DNA of 64,000 nucleotides from Chiloscyllium plagiosum (lineage: Eukaryota), in assembly GCF_004010195.1 (NCBI RefSeq), contig NC_057745.1:348952-412951 (forward strand), read 5' to 3'. The translations under genes and the position numbers were made by a program. Below the pieces are notes generated by a model. The model saw only the letters and a program-made list of their open reading frames with translations. It did not search any database and was not told the origin of the DNA. Positions 4,556 to 35,007 of the stretch are shown here, one piece after another (position 1 is the first letter of the stretch; every line of letters begins with the position of its first letter).

Positions 4556-5363
4556 TCAGCAAAATAAAACTCAGAATCATTGTCTGGTGCTGGGAAGTTG
4601 AGAGATTCAGTCTCCACTGGGAGCACAGACTGTGACAGGGGAAGAGTGAAAGTAGTACATACAGGTGCTATTACAGACTTCAGTGCTAAAGCTTAGAGAG
4701 GGGTAAAATAAGGTTCCTACTCCTGACTGGCAGTAAATATTACAAGAACGGTGAGTTTGTGATTTTCTGGAGAGTATATGATTGCAATTAGCTGTAATGT
4801 CCTTTAACCGTGGTACATTTCTGTGTGTAAGTGCAACACTGGGGGAGATCAGTCATAGAGTGTGGGGACAGGAGGAGCTTGGACTTAGCACTGAGCTGCA
4901 GATCTGTAATTTTACACTGTCAGGGAGATTTGTAATTGTCTGGGAATAGAGTGATTGACTGATTGAATAACATGCAGCAGGATTCAACAGAGCTGTAGAA
5001 TCTTAGGTAACAAGCAACACTTCTGTGTCTCTTTCTGGAGGTAGGAGATAGCTTATTGGGAGAGGCAACAAGCGATACCCAGTATTCATGGAACTCAGGC
5101 CCCTTATATGTCAACATGTTTAAGAGAGGAAAAAAATGTTGAAATAAAACCATAATAGAATTTGTAAGCATTGTAGATAGTTAGTGTTTACCCACGGTGT
5201 GGGAATTTCTTACTGATTTTCAGGACCACTGTCAAATCTGGCATTTATTGCTGGTCCCTCTCCGTCTTTAAAAAAGTGATAGTGCACAGTCAGTAGTTGC
5301 TGTGACACACATACAGATAGACGTTAGCAAGTTACAAATGGTGTTCAAACATTCCACACAGAC

Positions 5364-5473
5364 CTGAGGAAGATCCCCATGGTACAGGGTGACCACCGGT
5401 TGGATGTTGCTCTCCAGGAGGGTATTAATTAGCTCGTTATAATGCATGATTCCTTTGTCATTGATTCGCTCAG
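5364..5473 (-). CDS. LCTL: LCTL coding exon 4: AERINDKGIMHYNELINTLLESNIQPVVTLYHGDLPQ
   Basis: GH1 PxVTLYH.DLPQ motif (Gly replaces the usual Trp), AG/GT boundaries, 110 nt, phase 1 to 0. Confidence 0.93.
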
Positions 5474-9529: not shown

Positions 9530-9656
9530 CAGGAGGGAAAGTCCCATAGTAGAAAGATCCTCCATGGTCTTTTGTCCAGTCAAACTCTCGAGACAGACCC
9601 AGGGATACCAACAGCAGAAAGGTCTGGGATGCAGTGAGTAGGACTGGTAGATGCAT
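9530..9656 (-). CDS. LCTL: Lactase-like protein (Klotho family, GH1), coding exon 1 with signal peptide: MHLPVLLTASQTFLLLVSLGLSREFDWTKDHGGSFYYGTFPP(G)
   Basis: ATG at 9656 with an in-frame stop three codons upstream, hydrophobic leader, and the SFYYGTFP motif typical of the LCTL N-terminus. Donor G|GTAAGG, phase 1. Confidence 0.9.
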
Positions 9657-18020: not shown

Positions 18021-18776
18021 GATTATACCTGGGTAGAAATGGTTCTCCTTCAAGATGCTCACATTCCCATTGGAAGAGAAGGTACCAGCCTCTCCTAAAT
18101 TGAGTGGTCATTGTCTTGTGAAAACAAGGACAATGTTTTATCTCGAGGCGTTGCTCAGAGTGGGAACAAACCATAAATTCTGTCTGAGTTACCGTAAAGT
18201 CAAGCACAGTCTATACGCTCACACTTAGATTTTCTAAATTCCAAAGCTGTATTTTGGGGTAATTTTCTTGTATTTTAATGCGTTACAAATGCTTTTTTCA
18301 AAATCAAGTTCTCGGTGGAGAATATTAACCAATTATTTGGTTCATCTTAGTGTTATTGGTAACCATTACTGACTGCCATTTTTTATCTGGAACCATTTTT
18401 TTGAGATTTGTGGTTTAGGATTTTCATTGCCCCCTGCACATATATCATCAGTCTGTCATCTTCTTGTGGCTCAGTTTATAGCAGGCTGATGACAAATAGT
18501 TTTATAATGACTGATGTTCTGTACCAGTTGTCTGCCTCTGCAATTTCTACTCACTTCATCAAAACTCCTCGGATCACCTTGAGTTTAATTACTTAGTCAG
18601 AAAGTCTTGCATGTTGTAAAGTGTGTGTCAGATTTAATTTCAAGTGGATATGTGCTTGACATTAAGTATTTAGCGTGTTTGGTTCTGAATCAATATGTCC
18701 TTCAGTCTGTATGTGTCTCCATATTGTTTTAAAGTTGAGATAGATATTTTAATAACCTTCTCTGTTTTCTTTACAC

Positions 18777-18827
18777 AGTAAACTGGATTTTGTACTCCAA
18801 CCCACTTTCTACGGGTTTTGTGGCTGC
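18777..18827 (+). pseudogene. crybgx-like N-terminal arm exon remnant: SKLDFVLQPTFYGFCGC
   Basis: Follows a polypyrimidine tract and resembles the teleost Crybgx arm (recalled as SKLGSVLQRAFYGSSGR). Donor reads TTAAGT instead of GTAAGT. Confidence 0.65.
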
Positions 18828-18912
18828 TTAAGTAAAAACCAGAAAATGCTTCCTCGCATTGACATCCTAAACACTGTGCACAATCGTTGATGTCTCAATC
18901 TTTATGATCCAA

Positions 18913-19261
18913 GTGACCCTATCTGAGTGAAGAAATCTTTCTGGCAGGTGGTTAGCAGTAATTGGTACAAAAACAGAAAGTGCTGGAAGAGCTCAGGTTT
19001 GACCCCATCAGTGGAGAGAAATCAGAGTTGATGTTTCAGATCCAGTCACCCTTCCTCAGAACTGGATCCGAAACATTAACTCTGATTTCTCTCCACAGAT
19101 GGGGTCAAACCTGCTGAGCTTCTCAGCAATTTTTGTTTTCGTTTCTGATTTATAGCATCAGTAGCTCTTTCAGTTTTTATTTAGCATTAACTGGTGTCAG
19201 TCCGAAGCTGTCAGAATGTAACTTCCAAGAGATGCAATTCTGTGCTAGTGGAGAGTGGGGT
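18913..19261 (+). pseudogene. crybgx-like Greek key 1 exon split by a transposon: VTLSE*RNLSGRWLA[insertion]LTGVSPKLSECNFQE/CNSVLVESGV
   Basis: Crystallin motif 1 pattern (VTLxExxNxxGRxxxL...NSVxVESG). Stop at 18928-18930, frameshift near 19232, acceptor CAA, donor ATAAGT. Confidence 0.85.
18967..19180. mobile_element. Palindromic Penelope-derived short element inserted in a crybgx-like exon
   Basis: Inverted arms of about 70 bp, 15-bp TSD TTAGCA(G/T)TAA(T/C)TGGT at 18952 and 19181, and a decayed hammerhead core. Confidence 0.8.
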
Positions 19262-20145
19262 ATAAGTCGTGTTATACCCCCTCAAAATATATTCAGAAGC
19301 CGAGACCCTGACTTTTTTTTATTTTAAAAGCAAGTGCCAGGTTGTGTGTTCTGGATACGATTTGATCAATCAGATTACCAATCTTGAAGCAAAGATTTAT
19401 TCATACACTATAGTTAAAATAAAACAACAGAAAGAAATTGGCATAAGAACTCCACTGATTTGTTTTTGATGTTATTGTCACATGTATCTTACAGTAAGAA
19501 TACAATCAAATGGTGAAAAGCTTTCATTTGGTGCCACAAAGCTGCCTTGCCAGCAGCACCGACTTCCTGAGGATGAATTCTTAAGTGGCTTTCTTGAAGA
19601 CAGGTTTGGGCTCAGGCCCTGATGACTTCTACAAATCAAAAGCTATTGGGATACTAGTCTTTATTATGAGAGGAGTTGAATTGAGAAGCAAGGATGGGAG
19701 CCTCTTGTAGCACAGAGGTAGTGTCCCTACCATTGAACCAAGAGACCAGGGTTCAACTTCTAACTGCTCCAGAGCTGCCTATAGGAAAAGAGGGTGTAAA
19801 CAAGGATGTCCTGCTTCACTTGTACCAGGCAAGCTACCCAGAACGGGGAGCTTGGTCTCCTTATTTTAAGGAAAGATGTGTATCCATTGGGAGTGTTTCA
19901 GAGGCAGTTTATTTGATTGATATCTGGAACAAGCAGGTTTTTTAATAAGTAAAGGTTGGAGAGACTGGGCTTGTTTCCACTGGAGTTTAGATGTGTGTGG
20001 GTAACTTGATTGAACTTTACCACATCCTGAACACAAGGCTGACAGAGAAGGGTTGCTTCCACTTGTGGGTGAAGCCATTGATAGGGGCCACTATTTAAAA
20101 TTAGGGGTGACACTTTTAGAAGATATCAGAATTTATTTTTTCTGA

Positions 20146-20835
20146 TGTGGTTCTGTTTGCTGAGCTGGGAATTTGTGTTGCAGACGTTTCGTCCCCTGTC
20201 TAGATGACATCCTCAGTGCTTGGGATCCTCCTGTGAAGCGCTTCTGTGATCTTTCCTCCGGCATTTGTAGTGGTTTTAATCTGCCGCTTCCGGTTGTCAG
20301 TTCCAGCTGTCCGTTGCAGTGGCCGGTATATTGGGTCCAGGTCGATGTGCTTATTGATTGAATCTGTGGATGAGTGCCACGCCTCTAGGAATTCCCCGCT
20401 GTTCTCTGTTTGGCTTGTCCTATAATAGTAGTGTTGTCCCAGTCAAACTCATGTTGCTTGTCATCTGCGTGTGTGGCTACTAAGGATAGCTGGTCGTGTC
20501 GTTTCGTGGCTAGTTGGTGTTCATGGATGCGGATCGTTAGCTGTCTTCTTGTTTGTCCTATGTAGTGTTTTGTGCAGTCCTTGCATGGGATTTTGTACAC
20601 TACATTGGTTTTGCTTATGCTGGGTATCGGGTCCTTCATTCTGGTGAGTTGTTGTCTGAGAGTGGCTGTTGGTTTGTGTGCTGTTATGAGTCCTAATGGT
20701 CGCAATAGTCTAACTGTCAGTTTGGAAATGCTCTTGATGTATAGTAATGTGGCTAGTCCTTTGGGTTGCGGCGTTCCCAGCTCGGCGAACAGAACCACAA
20801 CAACAAGCACCCGAGCTACAAATCTTCGCACAAAC
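20146..20835 (-). mobile_element. Penelope-like element 3' fragment (GIY-YIG endonuclease) with a short inverted terminus
   Basis: NVVYKIPCKDCTKHYIGQT...RIHEH translation. TSD TTTATTTTTTCTGA at 20132 and 20836. Confidence 0.9.
20180..20219 (-). ncRNA. Minimal hammerhead ribozyme motif
   Basis: Reverse strand reads GCA-CTGAGGA-T-GTCATCT(AGAC)AGGGGAC-GAAAC-GTC-TGC, with stem I GCA/TGC, stem II and a GUC triplet. Confidence 0.72.
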
Positions 20836-20905
20836 TTTATTTTTTCTGACTTTAACACCTGCTGCAGTGCAGGTAGGAAATTCTTTAATTCCCTGTTGTT
20901 GACAG

Positions 20906-21033
20906 TCGGGTCAGATAAAAGGGTGAAGAGCTACAGTGGTTGCCGGCATCTCTGGGATATGTATGACAAACAAGAGTACAGCAGTCGGAGAGGTCACAAG
21001 GTCACTACAGAGCAGCAGAGCCTGTCAGGATAC
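20906..21033 (+). pseudogene. crybgx-like Greek key 2 exon remnant: RVR*K../SYSGCRHLWDMYDKQEYSS...
   Basis: CAG acceptor in phase 2. LWDMxDxxEY matches the recalled Crybgx-specific YLWDMSDRGEY. Contains a stop and a frameshift, and the probable donor reads GCGAGT. Confidence 0.75.
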
Positions 21034-21419
21034 GCGAGTATATCGTTTAAATTACTTTTAGTCCCATCTTTCTTCAGTTCCTGGAGGCAGTCGTAGTAAC
21101 ATGAGGTTACATATTTGGGTGGTTGCTTTACCCGAAACGCTACCTGGGTAGTGTCTCCCACCCATCCTCCTCCACTAACCAAAACAAAGGTTCTGTGCAT
21201 CAATTGGTAAGGTGACAAGCATTTTCTTTCGTGTTTCATTTTTTTTCAGCGATCTATTTGGGATTCCCTACAGTGTGGAAACAGGGCCCCACACCGACAC
21301 TCCAAAGAGCAACCCACGCAGACCCATTCCCCAACATTTACCCCTGCACCTGACACTACGGGCAATTTAGCATGGCCAATTCACCTAACCTGTACATCTT
21401 TAGACTGTGGGAGGAAACC

Positions 21420-23280
21420 ATTGTAAGTTAGCCAGAAAATATCTAAAGAGAGGACTAAGAAGAGCCAGGAGGAGACATGAGAAGTTGTTGGTGGATAGGA
21501 ACAAGGAAAGCCCTAAGGCCTTCTATAGGTATATCAGGAATAAAAGAGTGACTAGAGTAAGATTAGAGCCAAAGACTGTAGTGGGAAGTTGTGTGTGGAA
21601 TCAGAGGACATGGGAGGAAGTGCTTAATGAGTGCTTTTCATCAGTATTCACATTGGAAAAGAGCAATGTTAGTGAGAAAATGGAGATACAGGCTACTAGA
21701 TTAGATGGGATTGCGGTTGACAAAGAGGTTTTAGCAATTTTGGAAGATCTGAAAATACATAAGACCCATGGGCTGGATGGGATTTATCCTCGGATTCTCT
21801 GGGAAGCCAGGGAGGAGATTGCAGAGCCTTTGGCTTCGATCTTTATGTCATCATTGTCGACAGGAGGAGAAGATGGCAAATGTTGTTCCCTTGTTCAAGA
21901 AGGGGAGTCAGGACAACCCTGGTAATTATAGGCCAGTGAGCCTTACCACGGTTGTGGGAAAGTGTTGGAAAAGGCTATAGGAGATAGGATTTATAATCAT
22001 CTGGAAAGCAATAAGATGATTACAGATAGTCAACATGGTTTTATGAAGAATAGATTATGCCTCTCTAACCTTATTGAGTTCTTCAAGAAGGTGACAAAAC
22101 AGGTGGATGAAGGTAAAGTGGTTGATGTGATGTATATGGATTTCAGTTAGGGGTTTGATAAGGTTCCACACAGTAGACTATTATACAAAATACAGAGTTA
22201 CGGGATTAAAGGTGATTTAGCAGTTTAGATCAGAAATTGGCTAGCTGTAAAACGACAGAGAGTGGTGTTTGATGGGAAATGTTCATCCTGGAGCTCAGTT
22301 ACCAGTGGTGCGCCACAAGGATCTGTTTTGGGGCCACTGCTGTTAGTCATTTTTATAAATTATCTGGAGGTGGGCGTAGAAGGATGGGTTAGTAAATTTG
22401 TGGATGACTCTAAGGTAGGCAGAGTTGTGGATAGTGCTGAAGGATGTTGTAGGTTACAGAGGGACATAGATACGATGCAGAGTTGGGATGAGAAGTGGCA
22501 AATGGAGTTTAATGCAGAAAAGTGTGAGCTAGTTCACTTTGGAAGTAGTAACAGGAATGCTGAGTACTGGGCTAATGGTAAAATCCTTGGCAGTGTAGAT
22601 GAACAGAGAGATCTCTGTGTCTAGGTGCATAAATCCCCGAAAGTTGCCACCCCGGATGACAGGGTTGTTAAGAATGCAAATGGTGTGTTGCCGTTTATTG
22701 GTAAGGGGGATTGAGTTTCGGAGCCACGAGGTCATGTTTCAGCTGTACAGGACCCTGGTAAGGCTGCATCTGGAGTATTGCGTACAGTTCTGGTCACTGC
22801 ATTATGGGAAGGACGTGGAAGCTTTGGAAAGGGTTCAGAGAAGATTTACTAGGATGTTGCCTGGTATGGAGGGGAGGTCTTACGCATAAAGGCTGAGGGA
22901 ACCGAGGCTGTTTTCGTTGGAGAGAAAGTTGAGAGGTGACTTATTTGAGATGTATTAGATAATCAGAGGGTTAGATAGGATGGCCAGTGACAGCCTTTTA
23001 CCTTGGAAGCTGGTGGCTAACATGAGGAGACATAGCTTTAAATTGAGGGGTGATAGATTTAGGACAGACATCAGGGGTAATTTCTTTACTCAGTAGTAGG
23101 GGTGTGGAAAGGCTTGCCTGCAACAGTAGTAGACTTGCCCTTGTTAAGGGCATTTAAATGGGCATTGGACATTCATATGGATAATGATGGAATGGTATAG
23201 GTTAGAAGGGCATCAGATTAATTTCACAGGTTGGTGCAACATCGAGGGCCGAAGGACCTGTACTGCGCTGTAATGTTCTG
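21420..23280 (+). mobile_element. 5'-truncated CR1 LINE ORF2 with frameshifts
   Basis: NYRPVSLT, SQHGF, PQGSVLGP and LEYCVQFWS translations. Confidence 0.9.
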
Positions 23281-23999
23281 TAAGTGGTTTGGCATATCAG
23301 CATCTCCTCTGTGATAGCTGAGAGGTGGGTCAAAAAAAATGATCTGATAATGTTGCATGATGCACTAAATTACCAGCTATCAACAAATCATTATCCAGTA
23401 AAATTTCTTCACATAAGACAGCCATAGAAAGATCAAACATTTTCAGAGAGAACTTAGTGGCCATCAAAAACATAAATCACTTTCTTCATCAAATGGTACA
23501 TGTCAAGTATCAAGTCTTAACACTTGTAGGTTTAAATAAAAACCTAGAAAGTTAAAAGGGATGATGCCAAACAGCTCACTGTAGCGAGCTTCCGGCTTTG
23601 ATACCTTTGATTTTGGCTGCTGTGTGTTAAAGCTTGATGGTGAAATAATATCTCCCAGCAGGCATCTGAGAGCTTTGCTTTTGTAGAGGTACCAATTGAA
23701 AGTCAATTACCTCGTAGATATGTCCTTAGTAACCTAAAGTAAATTTGGCTTGAAACAAAACAGGCAGAAGTTGTTCAATTCTCACAAATCAGGATTTGTT
23801 GTTGGAAAATGACAGCATTTTGTCACGATTAACCCAGAGGCTGTAGTGTTATATTGAAGAAGTAGGCAATCCCTTATTCAGTAGAGAAGCAGGCAGAGAA
23901 ACATTTTAATCTTGAAAAATCGGAATGAATTAAAAAAAAACTGCAACCATTGACACTACCAAACTGTATCAAATATCTTTGTGCCTTGAAACTAATAAG

Positions 24000-24138
24000 G
24001 AACATTTACCATCGAAAATCTGCTTCCACAAAGAAAACAGCATTTCTGGAAGGAAGGTGGAGCTCCAAGAGAATATACTGAATCCCATTTCATGTTCACT
24101 CTCGATCACTGTGCCTCTGCCACGGGTCAGGGAGGAAT
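24000..24138 (+). pseudogene. crybgx-like Greek key 3 exon remnant: EHLPSKICFHKENSISGRKVELQENILNPISC/TLDHCASATGQGG(M)
   Basis: SGRKVELQE motif 3 pattern. AG and GTACGT are intact, but the 139-nt length implies a frameshift. The terminal AT joins the G of the next exon to give GG-M-WVAY. Confidence 0.8.
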
Positions 24139-25134
24139 GTACGTACAGATTGGGCTGTTACAGAGTACAGTCAGAGTTGGTTTGGCTACACAACAGGCAC
24201 CATACTTGAAAAATAATTTATTGTTTAATGTCAAAGTGTGACTCTTTTATATAAATGCAATTATTTCAGTCAAAATATTATCCATACTATTTGCATATAT
24301 AGTGAAAGTTCTTGGAATTATGGCACAGTGGTAGTATCCACATCTCTGAATCAGGCGACCAGATTTCAAGGCCCATTTGTTCCAGAGATGTATGACATCT
24401 TTGAACAGGTTGATTTAAATAAAAACCTAGAAAGTTGGGGGGGGGGGAATACCAAACACTCTCTGTAGCGAGCTTTCAGCTTTGTTACCTTTGATTTTGG
24501 CTGCTGTGTGTTAAAGGCTCTCGTGGTGCAGTGGTACCTCTTTGGAGCAGGCCTGGGTTCAGGTCCTGCATGCTCCAGAGGTACATCAGAACACATGCAC
24601 CCCTGTTGATTAGATGTATCTAGATTGAAGATTCCCAACTGTTTCTGTGCTTCAGCAGATTACAACCAGTGGGGGACTCAGCTGGTGCCTTTGATAGTAA
24701 TTATCATTGGTCTAGCTGACCTCACAACTAAACCTAATCCATCCTCAACAGGGAGAAATCACTGGATAATGATCGGAGCAGAAACCTTAGTTGACCTTTC
24801 CCTCCCTTGTTGAATCTAAGATTTGTCACCACTACCAGAAACCCTGAGCTAAGATCCATCATCTCAGTACAACAAAGGAGTCAAAACACCAGGGTGGTGA
24901 TCAGTCTGGGTCAGTGCACCTGGCACAAGACACAATGTCCCATTTTAACAGAATACTGTTTAATTTCCCATCTCTCTGCAACCAGCACTAACTTGATGAT
25001 AAACTAGTGTGTTTCACAGTGAACATGCAGTATCCTTTAGTCAGACATAGTGCACCCAGAGCAGGATGCACAGCTTTAAAGTATTGGGTTACAGGGTCAG
25101 TGTATATTTGATTTTCTTCTCCATTTCATTATAG

Positions 25135-25243
25135 GTGGGTAGCCTACCGGGATGTAAATTACCAGGGCTGACTTCAGCAATTATACTGACTGAGGAGAAC
25201 TGCTGCCGCGATGGGATCCATTCATCATGTACATTTCCATTGA
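25135..25243 (+). pseudogene. crybgx-like Greek key 4 terminal exon remnant: WVAYRDVNYQG/[deletion]DFSNYTD*G/RTAAAMGSIHHVHFH*
   Basis: Strong acceptor (TTTCTTCTCCATTTCATTATAG), WVxYxxxNYxG and GSI motifs. About 7 codons appear deleted, and a Trp position reads TGA at 25191. Confidence 0.85.
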
Positions 25244-28038: not shown

Positions 28039-28167
28039 TTAGGAGATGCATTCTTCATCCTCCTCCTCTTCCTCATTTTCCTGTGACGCATTTCTAACAG
28101 ACTGTAATGTGCTCAACTGAAGCTGGGTTTGATTGATAACACTCGCATCATCCACCTGCATTGAGGA
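28039..28167 (-). CDS. SNAPC5: SNAPC5 coding exon 3: SSMQVDDASVINQTQLQLSTLQSVRNASQENEEEEEDEECIS*
   Basis: INQTxLxLST motif and acidic tail as in vertebrate SNAPC5, TGTAG acceptor, TAA stop. Total protein 103 aa. Confidence 0.9.
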   Translation of the reverse strand, partial: SSMQVDDASVINQTQLQLSTLQSVRNASQENEEEEEDEECIS

Positions 28168-28339
28168 CTACAGAAACAAAGAGTCAGCAAATGAAATGGA
28201 TCACAATTACCATTCAATGGCAATGTCAGACCAGGCTAAAACTTTAACATCTCCAGTTTCTCATGTGCTGAGTGTACTACTTCCTGACTATCATTTTGGT
28301 ATAAAACAATGGTACTTTCTGCAACAAAGTAAATGACCT

Positions 28340-28990
28340 CTCATCCTCCAAGTCATTAATCTAGTAAATAATTGAAGCCCCATGACTGATCTATATATAC
28401 TCCATCCTTGAAAAGATCCATTAATCCCAACTCCATCCTCTGTGTTAACCAATCCTCAATCCACGCTGATGCATTACTCTCAATTCCATATTCTCCTATT
28501 TTGTGCAAAATCCTTCTGCGCACCTTATCAAAAGCCTTCTGGAAATCAAATACACTACAACTACTAGCTCTCTTTATCAATTCTGCTTGTTACATTCCTC
28601 AAAGGATTCCAACAAATTTGGAATAAGGGAAATACAGACCATGTGTGGGCAAATGGAATTAGTTTAGAGTCACATCATAGCACAGGCATACTGTACTTTA
28701 TGAATGATTTCCTTTTCACAAAACCATACTAACTTGGTTTGAGTGCATTAAGTTTTTCTAAGTATCTTCCTATTTCTTCCTTAATAAGGGACTCTAGTAT
28801 TTTTCCAGATGTTAGATTAACTGGCCTGTAGTTTCCTGCTTCCTGTCTCCTTCCCTTTTTGAACAGGGATGTCAAACACAGGCTTTACCAATGGGCTGGC
28901 ACTTTTCTGTTTCCAGTGAGTTCTGGAATATTTTGACCAATGCCTCCACCATCTCAGCAGGCACTTCCTTCCTTTAAAACTTCTCTTCCT
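28340..28990 (-). mobile_element. Old CR1-like RT fragments
   Basis: DFQKAFDKV...WIEDWLT translation. Confidence 0.65.
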
Positions 28991-31639
28991 CCCCAGCACT
29001 GCATCCTGAATCAAACTCATTTTCTCCCACACCAATCTCTGAGCCATGTATTTTTCTCTATACTGCAATTTACACATGGCTGGTAGTTAATACAGAGATG
29101 AACCCACCTCTGTGTTTTTGCTTTATCATTTAGCACAGAGTTGCTTATAATTCCTCAGTAGACAACACAGCCTTCAGAACATTACCTTCTCTACAAAAAA
29201 CAGTTATCTATTCCCCTATGATATTCCCTAAGACTGTTATGTTTCTTTCTCAGTGCACATCCTTCCCAGTCTCTGCCCTCATCCACTTGCTAAGCAAAAA
29301 CTTTGAACCGACTGGAGCTGAAGCTCCTTCAAATCGAAATTCAGGATCATCATACCTGCATCACTCAGTTACACCTACCTGCCTCTGAACTGTAATTAGT
29401 CCAAGATTTGTGACTGCTTCCTGAAACAGTGACCAGGTACCTTTCCCCATCCTTAGTAACTACAGCTCACTAACTCTGAGGTGAAGACCCTTGAGCAGCA
29501 AGCAATTGCTGTAGATTTGGTCACTGTGGATTGCATTAATATCCACAAACTCCTACATACTACAGCTGCAATACATCAAGTGAGCCTTCTTTGAACTGTC
29601 TCCTTATGTCCTTAAGTGCAAATTCTTCCCACTGTAGTCTCATCAACATCCTAGACAATCACAGCACAACCTCTCTGTTATATTCCATTCCCCTTGTAAA
29701 AAAAAATCACAACTTTCTATTTGCCTTCCTAATCACACTAACATTTTCAGCTTCACATAGCAGGACCCTCAAGTCTCTATATATCACTGGATTCTGCAAA
29801 ATCTCACCATTTAATAATACACTGCTTTTCTATTTCTTCTGCCAAAATTGACAAGTTTGTATGTTATCTCTACACAGTACAGAATTTGGATTATTGTGAC
29901 TATTTTCCCAGCAAAAGGAGAAGAGATTTGATAGAGATATTCAAAATCATAAAGAGTCTAGGCAATGTAGTTATGGAGAAACCATCCCCATTGGCAGGAT
30001 AATTGAAAGACCAAAGGGGCAAAAGAAACAATTATGATTTTTTTTCACGCTGTGAGTGGTTACGGATTGGAATGGACAGCCTGAAACTATGGCGGAGGTA
30101 GGTCAATTGATCCATTGAAGAAGAAACTGGATTTTTAGCTGAAAAGGAAGAAGGTGCAAGACCACAGGAGAAAGCAGGGGAGTGACATCAAGTGTTCATT
30201 CAGATCACCAACACAAACATGACATCGGCTGAATGGTGTCCTCTAATCATGTAACCATTCTGTAATTTTACCTCATGCTGATGGCTTGAGATATGTTTTT
30301 GCCCACAAGAAGAATCATTTTTGTATCCATTCCATCAAAATAAATTTGATGGACCTGTATTCGGGTCACCAAGTGAACCTTCTTTTGTCCAAGAAGTCAG
30401 CATGTCAATCCCTTCCTGATATATACCCCTATTTCTAGTCATGTCGGTCTTCCCTAAATCCTCTCTGTACTCCTATATCTTCTCCATTCCTACCTTCCCA
30501 ATTCTGTTTGAAATAAAGTCTGGTGCTTGGATTGTTCTTCTGTGGCTTTGCTAACCTGTCACTAACTAGTCAGCAATTAGTGTACCGCTGCCCAGAGATA
30601 CCTTCTTTCCTCTACCATACTTGGACTTGCATCTTCCATGTCATAAGTCATCTCCCAATTCACTCACCAAGATATACTGCCTCACATTTATCTGTGTGAA
30701 TTTAGTTTACCAATTATTTGACGAATCTCTAACTTTATTCATGATCTTCTGTAATTTATTTCAAAGATGTCAAGGCCTTGGCAAGAATGAAGAGAAAATT
30801 TATTAGAATAATTCTAGGTACAGCATACTGGCTCAGTGGTTAGCTTTGCTGCCTCACAGTGCCACGGACCCAGGTTCGATTCCAGCCTCCAGTGACTATC
30901 TCTGCAAAGTTTTTATGTTCTCCCCATGTCAGTGTGCATTTCCTCTGGGTGCTCCAGTTTCCTCCCACAATCCAAAGATGTGTAGGCTAGGTGGGTTAGC
31001 CTTGGGAAATGTATGGTTACAGGGATAGGTTAGCAGGGTGGGTCTAGATGGGATGCTCTACAGAGGATCAGTGTGGATTCTATGGGCTGAATGGCCTGTT
31101 TCCACACTATTAGTCCACGCTGTGGACATCAGTGAATCAGATGGGTTTTTCTGACATCCAACAATAGAGTAATGGTTGTTAAGACTTTTTTTTAACTGAA
31201 CTCCAATTCTACTATCTGTTGTGAGAGGATTTGAACCCAAGTTCCCAGAACATTACTTGGATTCCTGGATTAATAGTCCAGTGATATTAGTACTAGGCTG
31301 CCACTTCCCTTTATTTAAATGATAGGTAAAAGAACCCAGAAGGGAGACGATGTGAAAAAAAAACACAACATGCCCTAGCTTTTTTAAAGATAAGCCACAT
31401 GTCACAGTCTTTCCTTCCTCCCCTCCCCCAGAACCCTATCATTTTATTTCAGAGAGCAAACAGAAGACAGACTGAACATGATGGGTGGAATGAAGCAAGG
31501 ATAGCACAAGTCAATATCAGATGGGGAATGCAGAATGATAAACACAAAAGTTATTCAATATGTATTCACATGATGCTGTTTCCTTGAAATTTTAAAAGAA
31601 AAATATATTAATGTTTATAGCTCAGATCAGATTTCTCAC

Positions 31640-31732
31640 CTCTACAGGTTCAGCTGCTTGACCACAGTTGTCAGTGTCATCATCACCATCTTCCCTAGTC
31701 ATGATCATCGAGCGAAGGGCCAACTCTTCTAC
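31640..31732 (-). CDS. SNAPC5: SNAPC5 coding exon 2: VEELALRSMIMTREDGDDDTDNCGQAAEPVE
   Basis: VEELALxSMI motif, TTTTAG acceptor and GTGAGA donor, 93 nt. Confidence 0.93.
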
Positions 31733-32477
31733 CTAAAAGGTACACACATACCCACTTACACAAGGATCCTTTCCAAAAAAATGTTGGCATCCAATATTGA
31801 TAATCAGCATTCCTGCAGCATCTTTAACATACCAATATTACCAAGATACCTAGACAGGAATAAAGCCACCCTGAGCGATGGGAAATGACTAATGAAGGAG
31901 AAATCATTCAACCTCTAATTCAATTAGATCACTGCTGATCTGCACCATAATTCCACGTTTGTCCTTTTTGGCATCATATCCCATTACCAGGTACAGATTA
32001 ATATGTCGGGCCCAGGGCTTTAGAATCCCATAATCCATTAATTACAAAAGGGATTGGCTGGAGCATGCAAAACTTTGAAATAAATAGGAAAGGTTTGGAG
32101 GGACATGGGCCAGGAGCAGGCAGGTGGGACTAGTTTAGTTTGGGATGACATTCGGCATGGACTGCTTGGACCAAAGAGGCTATTCCTGTGCTGGATGACT
32201 ATGGGACACGCTGCAGGACATCAACCCAGAACTTAAGAGTCAGAGCTCCACTTACCTATCCACTCACCATAGCCCTTACTTCCTTTACTGTTCAGTGGGT
32301 GTCTAGCTTTCCACTAACCCAGAGGAATACTAAACATTAAAGTCTCACATAACTTCAACAATATCACTCACAATCTGTCAGTGACTGGGTATCCACAGTT
32401 TTGTTTGGGGTGAGGGGATGGGAGGGGGCTTTTCCACTACCATCTTTGAGGTAAATGTTCACTGGTATCATTCTTAA

Positions 32478-32982
32478 GATGTTGTGAAACTTGAAAGGGT
32501 TCAGAAAAGACTTACAAGGATGTTGCCAGGGTTGGTGGATCTGAGCTACAGGGAGAGGCTGAACAGGCTGGGGCTGTTTTCCCTGGAGCGTTGGAGGCTG
32601 AGGTGTCACTGTATAGAGGTTTACAAAATTATGAGGGGCATGGATAGGATAAATAGACAATGTCTTTTCCCTGGGTCGGGGAGTCCAGAACTAGAGGGCA
32701 TAGGTTTAGGATGAGTGGGGAAAGATATAAAAGTGACCCAAGGGGCAACTTTTTCACGCAGAGGGTGGTACATGTATGGAATGAGCTGCCAAAGGATGTG
32801 ATGGAGGCTGGTACAATTGCAACATTTAAGAGGCATTTGGATGGGTATATGGATAGGAAAGGTTTGGAGGGATATGGGCCGGGTGCTGGCAGGTGGGACT
32901 AGATTGGGTTGGGATATCTGGTCGGCATGGACAGGTTGGACCGAAGGGTCTGTTTCTATGTTGTACATCTCTATGACTCTAT
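32478..32982 (+). mobile_element. CR1 LINE 3' fragment
   Basis: LERVQKRLTRMLPGL...FFTQRVVHVWNELP translation and CTCTATGACTCTAT tail. Confidence 0.9.
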
Positions 32983-33449
32983 AAATGGTCTAACTCCAAT
33001 TATAAGATTAAAATCCTTTTTGTTTGAATATCCCCTCAGATACAATTGTTTTCTGTCTTTAGATTAGGGAAGATTAGCAAAGCTAAATTCTTGGCTGCAG
33101 TCCAGCGGGATGACTTAACATTTTATTTACACTGTCGGATGGGTTACAGGTAAGCAAGGTTTTGAAGGTTCTGTTAGAAGGAACACCTACAGCCAGTTGT
33201 CAGCTCTGTAACAGGAGAACTGCAGGAATGCAATCAGTTAGGAACTTGAGTGCCAGCTTAGCTCAATTTATAGCAAGAGTGAGGGGATACTGCACAATTA
33301 CAGGTTGTCTCTCTCGAATACGACTCCCACTACTACATAACTTGGATGTAAAAGAATCCATGGCATTGCCAGTGTGTGCTACTCAGCATTTCTTCTTCAA
33401 CCAAAAGCTTTCTGGCTATAAGAACATAAGAAATTGCAGCAGTTTTAGG

Positions 33450-33870
33450 ATCGCTGCTGGGCCCTCTACTTTTTTGTCATTTACATAAATGATTTGGATG
33501 CGAACATAAGAGGTACAGTTAGTACGATTGCAGATGACACCAAAATTGGAGGTGTGGTGAATAACGAAGAGGGTTACCTCAGATTGCAACAGGATCTGGA
33601 CCAGATAGGCCAATGGGCTGAGGAGTGGCAGATGGAGTTTAATTCAGATAAATGCGAGGTGCTGCATTTTGGGAAAGCAAATCTTAGCAGGACGTATACA
33701 CTTAATGGTAAGGTCCTAGGTGTTGCTTGGAGTGCAGGTTCATAGCTCCTTGAAAGTGGAGTCGCAGGTAGATAGGATAGTGAAGGCGGCGTTTGGTATG
33801 CTTTCCTTTATTGATCAGAGCACTGAGTACAAGAGTTGGGAGGTCATGCTGTACATCTCTATGACTCTAG
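33450..33870 (+). mobile_element. Internally deleted CR1 fragment
   Basis: ADDTKIGG...WQMEFNSDKC joined directly to the CR1 tail. Confidence 0.85.
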
Positions 33871-34917
33871 GAGTAGGCCATCTAGCCTGTTGAGATGGTT
33901 CTGCCATTCAATAAGGTCAAGGCTGATCTTTCTGTGGACTCAGCTCCACTTAGCCGCCCACTCACGATAACCCTCCCTTCACTGTTCAAAAAATCTATCA
34001 ATCTTAGCCTTAAAAACATTCAATGAGGTAGCCTCAACTGCTTCAATGGGCAGAGAATTCCACAGATTCACAACCCTTTAGGTGAGAAGCTCCTTCTCTC
34101 TCAGTCCTAAATCTGTTCCCCCTTATTTTGAGGCTACACGCCCTAGTTCTAATTTCACCAGCCAGTGGAAACAACCTCCCTGCTTCTATCCTATCTATTC
34201 CCTAAATAATTTTATATGATTCTATAAGATCGCCCCTGCATCCTTTTAAATTCCAATGAGTACAGTCCCACTTTACTCAATCTTTTTACACAAGCCAACC
34301 CTCTCAGCTCTGGAATCTGCATAATCTGATGGCTGTGTTTGCCTGGCATAGCAACAGTTGGTCACACGTGGGAAAGGGGCTGAAATGGCTCCAGACCTCT
34401 AAATTGTAAACTTCAAGCTCCCATTGAATGAATGGCACAACATGCAGAACTGAAGACAATACTTTTTTTTAAATATAGGAAATGATTCAGTGCCCTACCC
34501 AATCCTTAGTTTATGCTTATCCCATTAGAGGTGAACGTATATCTCAGCCCAATGTGACAGTGCCCGATCTGCTGATACATACTACAAGCAAATGTAATCA
34601 AATTAAAAAGTTTGGGATGCTTTTACTTGAATCACAGGAGAGAACAAAGACTAAGACTTAAGATTGTGTTTGGCTGGGTGATGCAGGCAGAAGCACCTCC
34701 CACCCTAAACTGTCTCAATTCAGCAAGAGCAATGTCAAAAATGAGGCAATGGAGTTGGGGAGGAGGGACTCCATGAACTGGACAGCCTGCACTATACCTC
34801 ACCAGGGAACACTTGCTATTGGCCCTGCTTGTAAAGGTACTTCATCCACCGACACAGAACAGCAGAATTTAAATCTATACATAAACAATAGGTGTTATTC
34901 GTTGCATGTAAGTATAC

Positions 34918-35007
34918 CTTGAGTCGGTTTAATTGATCTTGTAAACTGGTTTTGACTTTCAGTAGAGCTTCTTCTTCTTTCTTCAGCTCCTGCAACCGAC
35001 TGAGCAT
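34918..35007 (-). CDS. SNAPC5: snRNA-activating protein complex subunit 5 (SNAP19), coding exon 1: MLSRLQELKKEEEALLKVKTSLQDQLNRLK
   Basis: Closely matches the vertebrate SNAPC5 N-terminal leucine zipper. Donor AAG|GTATAC. An acceptor at 35037-35038 implies an upstream non-coding exon. Confidence 0.95.

What the first reader, a model, noticed from the sequence alone, without database searches (positions are those of the whole stretch)
18552..25243. Hidden fossil lens-crystallin gene (crybgx-like unitary pseudogene) between LCTL and SNAPC5
Seen in sequence: collinear plus-strand remnants reconstruct to SKLDFVLQPTFYGFCGC | VTLSE*RNLSGRWLALTGVSPKLSECNFQE/CNSVLVESGV | RVR*K../SYSGCRHLWDMYDKQEYSS.. 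| EHLPSKICFHKENSISGRKVELQENILNPISC/TLDHCASATGQGGM | WVAYRDVNYQG..DFSNYTD*G/RTAAAMGSIHHVHFH*. Established: one Greek key per exon, with a phase-2 intron before the W of even-numbered motifs, is the beta-crystallin gene layout. From memory, teleost Crybgx has the distinctive KLGSVLQRAFYG arm, the YLWDM insert and a GSIRRIRF-like end, and all three are echoed here. Inference: crybgx predates the split of bony and cartilaginous fishes and was lost in this lineage. The retained introns argue against a retrocopy.
Basis: partly seen in the sequence, partly recalled or inferred. Interest (0 to 1): 0.88.

Follow-up and report, generated by a model that had tools for sequence, protein, structure and literature searches.

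The report
Dead lens crystallin gene in shark
This shark genome holds only a broken remnant of the eye-lens gene crybgx, which other sharks, bony fishes and salamanders keep whole, so its lineage likely lost the gene long ago.

Summary
Confirmed. Five exon remnants at 18779-25243 (+) are a decayed crystallin beta-gamma X (crybgx) gene. A profile built only from window fragments found one protein among 109 candidates: sawshark Crybgx, E 1.5e-7. The remnant is 62-66% identical to six shark Crybgx proteins, 46-49% to chimaera, bony-fish and salamander ones, and 26-33% to other crystallins; a tree puts it inside elasmobranch Crybgx, 100/99. Lesions: three stops, five frameshifts, three dead splice sites and a 229-bp insertion. 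No intact copy was found in the assembly. It lies head-to-head with LCTL, and carp crybgx is numbered next to lctl. Crybgx in sharks is already in database names, so that part is not new. No carpet-shark or ray Crybgx came up, which hints at an order-wide loss; shared lesions could not be tested. The start at 18552 is unsupported. A solid but ordinary unitary pseudogene.

The parts
18779..18827 (+). crybgx N-terminal-arm exon remnant; acceptor AG intact, donor reads TT instead of GT (18828)
18913..19261 (+). Greek-key motif 1 exon remnant; acceptor reads AA, stop at 18928-18930, split by the insert, frameshift at 19232, donor at the orthologous phase-2 position reads AT
18967..19180 (.). Palindromic high-copy repeat inserted in the motif 1 exon, between 15-bp target-site copies 18952-18966 and 19181-19195 (13 of 15 alike); 229 bp added in all
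   Evidence: 5478 first-look candidates, best full-length other copies 83% identical among 40 scored
20906..21040 (+). Motif 2 exon remnant with the LWD insert; acceptor intact (phase 2), first W changed to R, stop at 20916-20918, frameshift at 20928; the part after about 20985 is too decayed to align surely and its donor is not placed
24000..24138 (+). Motif 3 exon remnant, the best kept; AG and GT present, frameshift at 24096-24097; single copy in the assembly
25135..25243 (+). Motif 4 (last) exon remnant; acceptor intact (phase 2), 23-bp deletion at 25169, stop at 25191-25193, frameshift at 25197-25198, original stop kept at 25241-25243
9530..9656 (-). First coding exon of LCTL, head-to-head with the remnant, 9.1 kb from its first traceable exon
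28057..35007 (-). SNAPC5, tail-to-tail neighbour (two exon matches to PF15497, E 1.1e-4 and 0.63)
21259..23282 (+). Interspersed repeats in the intron between motifs 2 and 3, with broken reverse-transcriptase-like frames (LINE label by eye)

Best explanation
This is the broken remnant of the shark's crybgx lens-crystallin gene, with its introns kept and next to LCTL, and it is likely the only copy, so the lineage has likely lost the protein. Shown: orthology to Crybgx, the exon layout, the lesions, and no intact copy in the assembly. It cannot encode a four-motif crystallin: the first stop comes six codons into motif 1 and three splice sites are dead. Inferred mechanism: selection on a minor lens-fibre crystallin relaxed, the gene died in place, and it has since drifted neutrally. 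The 229-bp insert probably came after the gene was dead: codon sites fixed in other sharks have drifted 17% (0.19 per site), while the insert's family copies differ by 17% pairwise, about half that per copy, and each target-site copy carries one change in 15. Which lesion came first cannot be read. The loss probably predates the split of bamboo sharks from zebra and whale sharks (inferred from absence in the protein collection only).
For: Window-only profile finds sawshark Crybgx alone, 1 of 109 candidates, E 1.5e-7. Identity over 158 residues: 62-66% to 6 sharks, 49% chimaera, 46-48% coelacanth, gar, zebrafish and two salamanders; 26-33% over 130-158 residues to 10 beta/gamma proteins; blastp best 182 bits against 40 for the best non-crybgx. 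Tree of 41 rows: inside Crybgx 100/99 and inside elasmobranch Crybgx 100/99, end branch 0.48 against 0.015-0.052 for intact sharks. 41 of 127 codons invariant in 7 shark proteins are changed and 36 of 213 fixed sites differ; intact sharks differ at 2-7 of about 160 in a leave-one-out test. Genome search with catshark Crybgx: 113 of 113 candidates scored, 100 matches; the two highest identities (54%, 57%) are this locus, all others are 49% or less, while intact sharks are 89-98% alike. Carp gene numbers run smad6, crybgx, lctl, lctl, tipin, dis3l. Five carpet-shark species are in the collection for a beta-B1-like crystallin, none for Crybgx.
Against: The assembly is in 101,977 contigs with gaps and withheld stretches, and reads could not be checked (one search listed no run), so an unassembled intact copy is not excluded. 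Pfam Crystall misses the remnant, and 9 of 159 candidates were not scored. With the Crybgx profile the remnant scores 170 but intact beta and gamma-N loci score 120-157, so that score alone does not name the family. No genomic DNA of another shark was seen: synteny rests on carp gene numbering, without orientation, and the neighbour on the far side differs (SNAPC5 here, smad6 in carp). The first coding exon and promoter were not found. The order of events rests on rough distances (p 0.169, s.e. 0.026; 15-bp target site).
Confidence: 0.92

Rival explanations
1. The remnant is a dead duplicate, and a working crybgx lies in an unassembled or withheld part of the genome.
For: Fragmented assembly; no read-level check; searches in it score only the best candidates.
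Against: No match above 57% in the genome; motif 3 DNA is single copy; the dead copy is the one beside LCTL, as carp crybgx is; no Crybgx protein from this or four related species in the collection.
Confidence: 0.04
2. The coding sequence is dead, but the locus is kept because it is transcribed as a non-coding RNA or carries lens enhancers shared with the head-to-head LCTL gene.
For: Head-to-head layout with LCTL; zebrafish crybgx, lctla and lctlb fall together in two eye-related expression tables; a transcribed gamma-crystallin pseudogene is reported in catshark eye (PMC11979771, passages).
Against: Three splice sites are dead, repeats fill the introns, and the exons have drifted at about the level of old repeats. 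Expression was not testable.
Confidence: 0.06
3. The remnant is a decayed beta-A, beta-B, gamma-N or CRYBG paralogue that only resembles crybgx.
For: Shares the one-motif-per-exon layout of beta and CRYBG genes; among non-crybgx queries CRYBG proteins gave the best weak hits to motif 3 (E 0.05-0.09).
Against: Identity 62-66% against 26-33%, tree support 100/99, Crybgx-type arm and LWD insert, stop right after motif 4.
Confidence: 0.005
4. The lesions are assembly or sequencing errors in an intact gene.
For: Reads were not examined.
Against: Twelve separate lesions, 36 substitutions at fixed sites with a 23:13 transition bias, and an old repeat with a diverged target-site pair; neighbouring LCTL exon frames read open.
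Confidence: 0.005

Closest known systems
Crybgx of other sharks and chimaera (Scyliorhinus canicula XP_038670014.1, S. torazame, Mustelus asterias, Carcharodon carcharias XP_041030827.1, Cetorhinus maximus, Pristiophorus japonicus, Heptranchias perlo, Callorhinchus milii XP_007907816.1)
   Same: Arm, four Greek keys, LWD insert, C-terminal end and stop position; 62-66% identity to sharks, 49% to chimaera.
   Different: Those are open frames, 89-98% alike among sharks; this one has three stops, five frameshifts, an insert and three dead splice sites.
Zebrafish crybgx (NP_001028894.1, Q45FX8)
   Same: Orthologue, 46% identity; lens-fibre gene (bioRxiv 2020.12.09.418533; PMC13762441); protein of low rank in the lens, 71-83 (PMC2779061).
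   Different: Intact and expressed; called fish-specific and unstudied in that preprint.
Frameshifted crybgx of the blind cichlid Lamprologus lethops (PMC7502198, passages)
   Same: Inactivation of the same gene in a fish lineage.
   Different: There it goes with loss of external eyes and is recent; here it is old and in a sighted shark (sightedness from general knowledge).
Beta-crystallin genes (CRYBA, CRYBB)
   Same: One motif per exon (PMC2929430, passages) and the same intron phases.
   Different: 26-33% identity, separate clade; in the tree Crybgx leans to gamma/gamma-N with weak support (85/82).

Membership tests
crybgx (orthologue) | Falls in the Crybgx clade of the beta-gamma crystallin tree | tested here: met
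   100/99 for Crybgx, 100/99 for elasmobranch Crybgx
crybgx (orthologue) | KLGSVLQR-type arm before motif 1 | tested here: met
   Decayed arm exon aligns to the shark arm; motif in 40 of 47 Crybgx-type hits, 0 of 151 others
crybgx (orthologue) | LW[DE] insert in motif 2 | tested here: met
   Present at 20950-20958; in 46 of 47 against 1 of 151
crybgx (orthologue) | Position next to LCTL | tested here: met
   Head-to-head here; consecutive gene numbers in carp, order inferred from numbering, orientation unseen
crybgx (orthologue) | Same exon boundaries as intact crybgx genes | not testable with these tools
   No genomic DNA of an intact crybgx was obtainable; boundaries match beta genes of this genome
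unitary pseudogene | Disabling lesions | tested here: met
   3 stops, 5 frameshifts, 1 insert, 3 dead splice sites
unitary pseudogene | No working copy in the genome | tested here: met
   Met for the assembly; raw reads not checked
unitary pseudogene | Working orthologues in outgroups | tested here: met
   Open frames in 7 shark species, chimaera, coelacanth, gar, bowfin, bichirs, teleosts, 3 salamanders; that they work is shown only for zebrafish expression
unitary pseudogene | No functional transcript or protein | not testable with these tools
   Run search listed none; no reads laid
processed pseudogene (retrocopy) | Introns absent | tested here: not met
   Four introns with splice-site remnants at beta-type positions
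CRYBA / CRYBB / CRYGN / CRYBG | Groups with one of these families | tested here: not met

The most novel reading that the evidence does not exclude
crybgx is an ancient jawed-vertebrate lens crystallin that survives up to salamanders and was lost many times over: once in the ancestor of the carpet sharks, separately in rays, and in frogs and amniotes. In bamboo sharks it is one of a set of old eye-gene losses (with GJE1 and USH2A, noted by other agents), which would make these sighted, bottom-living sharks natural knockouts for testing what Crybgx does in the lens.
Probability: 0.35. Interest if true: 0.65.

Novelty: new member of a known kind. Interest (0 to 1): 0.45.

Why it matters
Crybgx has no tested function (bioRxiv 2020.12.09.418533). 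A shark that lost it long ago shows the lens can be built without it and gives a natural comparison with sharks that keep it at 89-98% identity. The work also shows the gene is not fish-specific: three salamanders carry it under gamma-crystallin names. The remnant is invisible to the Pfam model, so such losses are easily missed. The kind of event, a unitary pseudogene, is ordinary.

Tried and rejected
Pfam Crystall on the genome and on fragments: no hit here. Word-based protein search with the motif 3 fragment: 4 candidates, none scored. ESM Atlas with that fragment: only unnamed clusters at 0.84. tblastn with this genome's beta-B1-like protein: best hit was motif 3 but E 0.70. Representative search with it: 150 beta/CRYBG proteins, no Crybgx. 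Sequencing-run search (DNA, word PACBIO): none was listed, which is no evidence; no reads could be laid, so expression and shared lesions are open. Four published zebrafish crybgx primers matched the 18.7-25.3 kb stretch no better at the expected sites than elsewhere: no weight given. First-exon candidate near 18552: not supported. Two weak extra genome hits were fetched: C12 scored 50-52 and C26 scored 54 and 68 against a null maximum of 66; the 68 is a chain of 18 short pieces without the beta layout and is taken as chance. A neutral-rate yardstick for carpet sharks was not found in the passages read of bioRxiv 2022.10.17.512540, so no age in years is given. Supplements of PMC11979771 and PMC7502198 could not be read; the first may list catshark crybgx expression.

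Full report
Setting. The window is G000:C36:348952-412951 of a 3.56-Gb genome. An intronless beta-B1-like crystallin of this genome is letter for letter a Chiloscyllium plagiosum record, so this is a bamboo shark. Gene order on C36: ZWILCH (+, 297-329 kb), LCTL (-, 339-359 kb), the remnant (+, 368-374 kb), SNAPC5 (-, 377-384 kb), a short-chain dehydrogenase (+, window 53561).

Is it real? The quoted fragments are present and in order. Single-sequence and Pfam tests do not see them: 0 of 138 PF00030 matches lie on C36 (150 of 159 candidates scored), 0 of 5 fragments match, and this genome's beta-B1-like protein gives E 0.70. A spliced, frameshift-tolerant alignment with a 47-row beta/gamma/CRYBG profile without crybgx, introns favoured at beta positions, scores 54.1 bits against 22.7 +/- 2.7, maximum 31.0, in 120 controls (30 stretches, each forward, reverse-complement, reversed and complemented); intact loci score 216-267. 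That path placed motifs 1, 3 and 4 rightly and missed motif 2.

What is it? An alignment of eight stop-free window fragments found 1 protein among 109 candidates: Crybgx of Pristiophorus japonicus, E 1.5e-7. The fragment set was picked from 809 local trials scored on beta/CRYBG proteins, none on Crybgx, so the E-value may be somewhat generous but the name was not steered. That protein found 48 hits among 475 candidates, 47 of Crybgx type and one beta-A1-like. Catshark Crybgx gives 7 collinear tblastn hits, all at this locus. A Crybgx profile scores 170.1 against 53.0 +/- 5.1 (max 66.3, n=60); intact beta and gamma-N loci score 120-157. Read through its breaks (164 positions; the unalignable end of motif 2 left out), the remnant is 62-66% identical to six shark proteins, 49% to chimaera, 46-48% to coelacanth, gar, zebrafish and two salamanders, and 26-33% to ten beta and gamma crystallins. 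In a 41-row tree (17 Crybgx, 13 beta/gamma representatives, gamma-N, gamma-S, 8 CRYBG cores; other stored proteins left out) it is inside elasmobranch Crybgx, 100/99, on a branch of 0.48 against 0.015-0.052; its place among sharks is unresolved.

Anatomy. Arm exon 18779-18827, donor TT. Motif 1 exon 18913-19261: acceptor AA, stop at codon 6, 229-bp insert, frameshift, donor AT. Motif 2 exon from 20906: W to R, stop, frameshift, decayed 3-prime half. Motif 3 exon 24000-24138: one frameshift. Motif 4 exon 25135-25243: 23-bp deletion, stop, frameshift, original stop kept. Introns before motifs 2 and 4 are phase 2, one base ahead of the W codon, as in loci L042 and L047. One motif per exon is the beta layout (PMC2929430). 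The insert is a palindromic repeat between 15-bp target-site copies with thousands of candidate relatives, the best about 83% identical.

Is it the only copy? All crystallin loci listed outside the large gamma cluster were read (of the cluster, 6 loci were printed); by eye they are gamma, gamma-N, gamma-S, beta-A/B, CRYBG and single-domain types, none with the Crybgx marks. With catshark Crybgx all 113 candidates were scored; only this locus exceeds 49% identity. Motif 3 DNA has one match. Reads were not available.

Place. In the carp table, gene 28074 is a member of a Crybgx cluster and is numbered between smad6 and lctl, followed by tipin and dis3l (PMC5009708 supplement). That run follows the human 15q22 neighbourhood as I recall it, so the numbers probably reflect position. 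The LCTL link therefore looks ancestral; the far neighbour differs, and the nearest SMAD-type MH2 match here is 3.4 Mb away (SMAD6 by inference).

Age and breadth. Of 127 codons invariant in seven shark proteins, 41 are changed; 36 of 213 fixed sites differ (p 0.169, s.e. 0.026; corrected 0.19). Intact sharks differ at 2-7 of 158-163. The insert looks about half as old, so it probably did not kill the gene (inference). Crybgx frames were found in seven shark species of four orders (order names from general knowledge), chimaera, coelacanth, gar, bowfin, bichirs, a sturgeon fragment, many teleosts and three salamanders. None came from carpet sharks, though five of their species are in the collection, nor from rays, though Pristis is, nor from Heterodontus, lungfish, frogs or amniotes. 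Limits: only proteins of 122-391 residues were searched; members were listed for 13 of the 47 clusters (two of them 15 of 20 and 15 of 32), and three hits are unnamed; missing annotation looks the same as loss. An order-wide loss is thus a lead, not a result.

What is known. Zebrafish crybgx is expressed in lens fibres, at low level, and is called fish-specific and unstudied (bioRxiv 2020.12.09.418533); its protein ranks 71-83 in the lens and maps to chromosome 7 (PMC2779061); it is frameshifted in a blind cichlid (PMC7502198). Searches: crybgx with crystallin, 10 papers; crybgx with shark, 0; two broader shark-crystallin searches listed no paper on this loss by title or abstract start. The catshark genome paper has no 'crybg' in its main text; its supplement was unreadable. 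The library lacks most subscription papers, and I could not see whether a database already flags this locus as a pseudogene.

Papers seen: passages of PMC7502198, PMC11979377, bioRxiv 2020.12.09.418533, PMC11979771, PMC13643694, PMC2779061, PMC10368750, PMC2358921, PMC13762441, PMC2929430 and bioRxiv 2022.10.17.512540; supplement rows of PMC9456529, PMC12232379, PMC10606920, PMC13762441 and PMC5009708. None was read whole. Wistow 2005, cited in PMC2358921 as describing the gene, was not seen.

Verdict. It is a new case of a known kind: a unitary pseudogene of a minor lens crystallin. Its value lies in the wider pattern of losses and in the salamander orthologues. Interest 0.45.

Noticed in passing
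P0176, P0177, P0213: Three salamanders (Lissotriton, Pleurodeles, Ambystoma) have proteins named gamma-crystallin A/C-like that fall inside the Crybgx clade (100/99), so crybgx is not fish-specific.
   Followed up: partly
one search hit list: No Crybgx from any ray, Heterodontus, lungfish, frog, caecilian or amniote among 47 hits; may be further losses or missing annotation.
   Followed up: partly
L031:1070-1711 (-), G000:C2: Intact intronless beta-B1-like crystallin, shared at 90% or more with four other carpet-shark species.
   Followed up: partly
window 5358-5471 (-), LCTL exon: Reads HGD where glycoside-hydrolase family 1 proteins usually have HWD (recalled); LCTL exon frames otherwise look open in 8 of 9 stretches printed, one was not printed.
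   Followed up: no
G000:C36: SNAPC5 lies on the 5-prime side of LCTL, beyond the remnant, and the nearest SMAD-type match is at 3.75 Mb: a local rearrangement or assembly difference against the carp order and the recalled human order.
   Followed up: partly
L062, L063, L064 (C3:10.29 Mb, C15:26.60 Mb, C25:16.72 Mb): The same beta-B3-type exons occur with identical translations on three chromosomes: recent duplication or assembly artefact.
   Followed up: no
L032, L033, L034, L038 (C37, C100894, C11032): A small family of single-domain, intronless beta-gamma crystallin frames, by eye like epidermal differentiation-specific proteins (label recalled).
   Followed up: no
L036:144-1496 (-), C67259: Open frame with two crystallin domains followed by a region that by eye resembles an aerolysin-type domain (label recalled); on a 2.4-kb GC-rich contig.
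   Followed up: no
window 23507-23632 and 24390-24516: Two copies of a short repeat about 884 bp apart flank the motif 3 exon.
   Followed up: no
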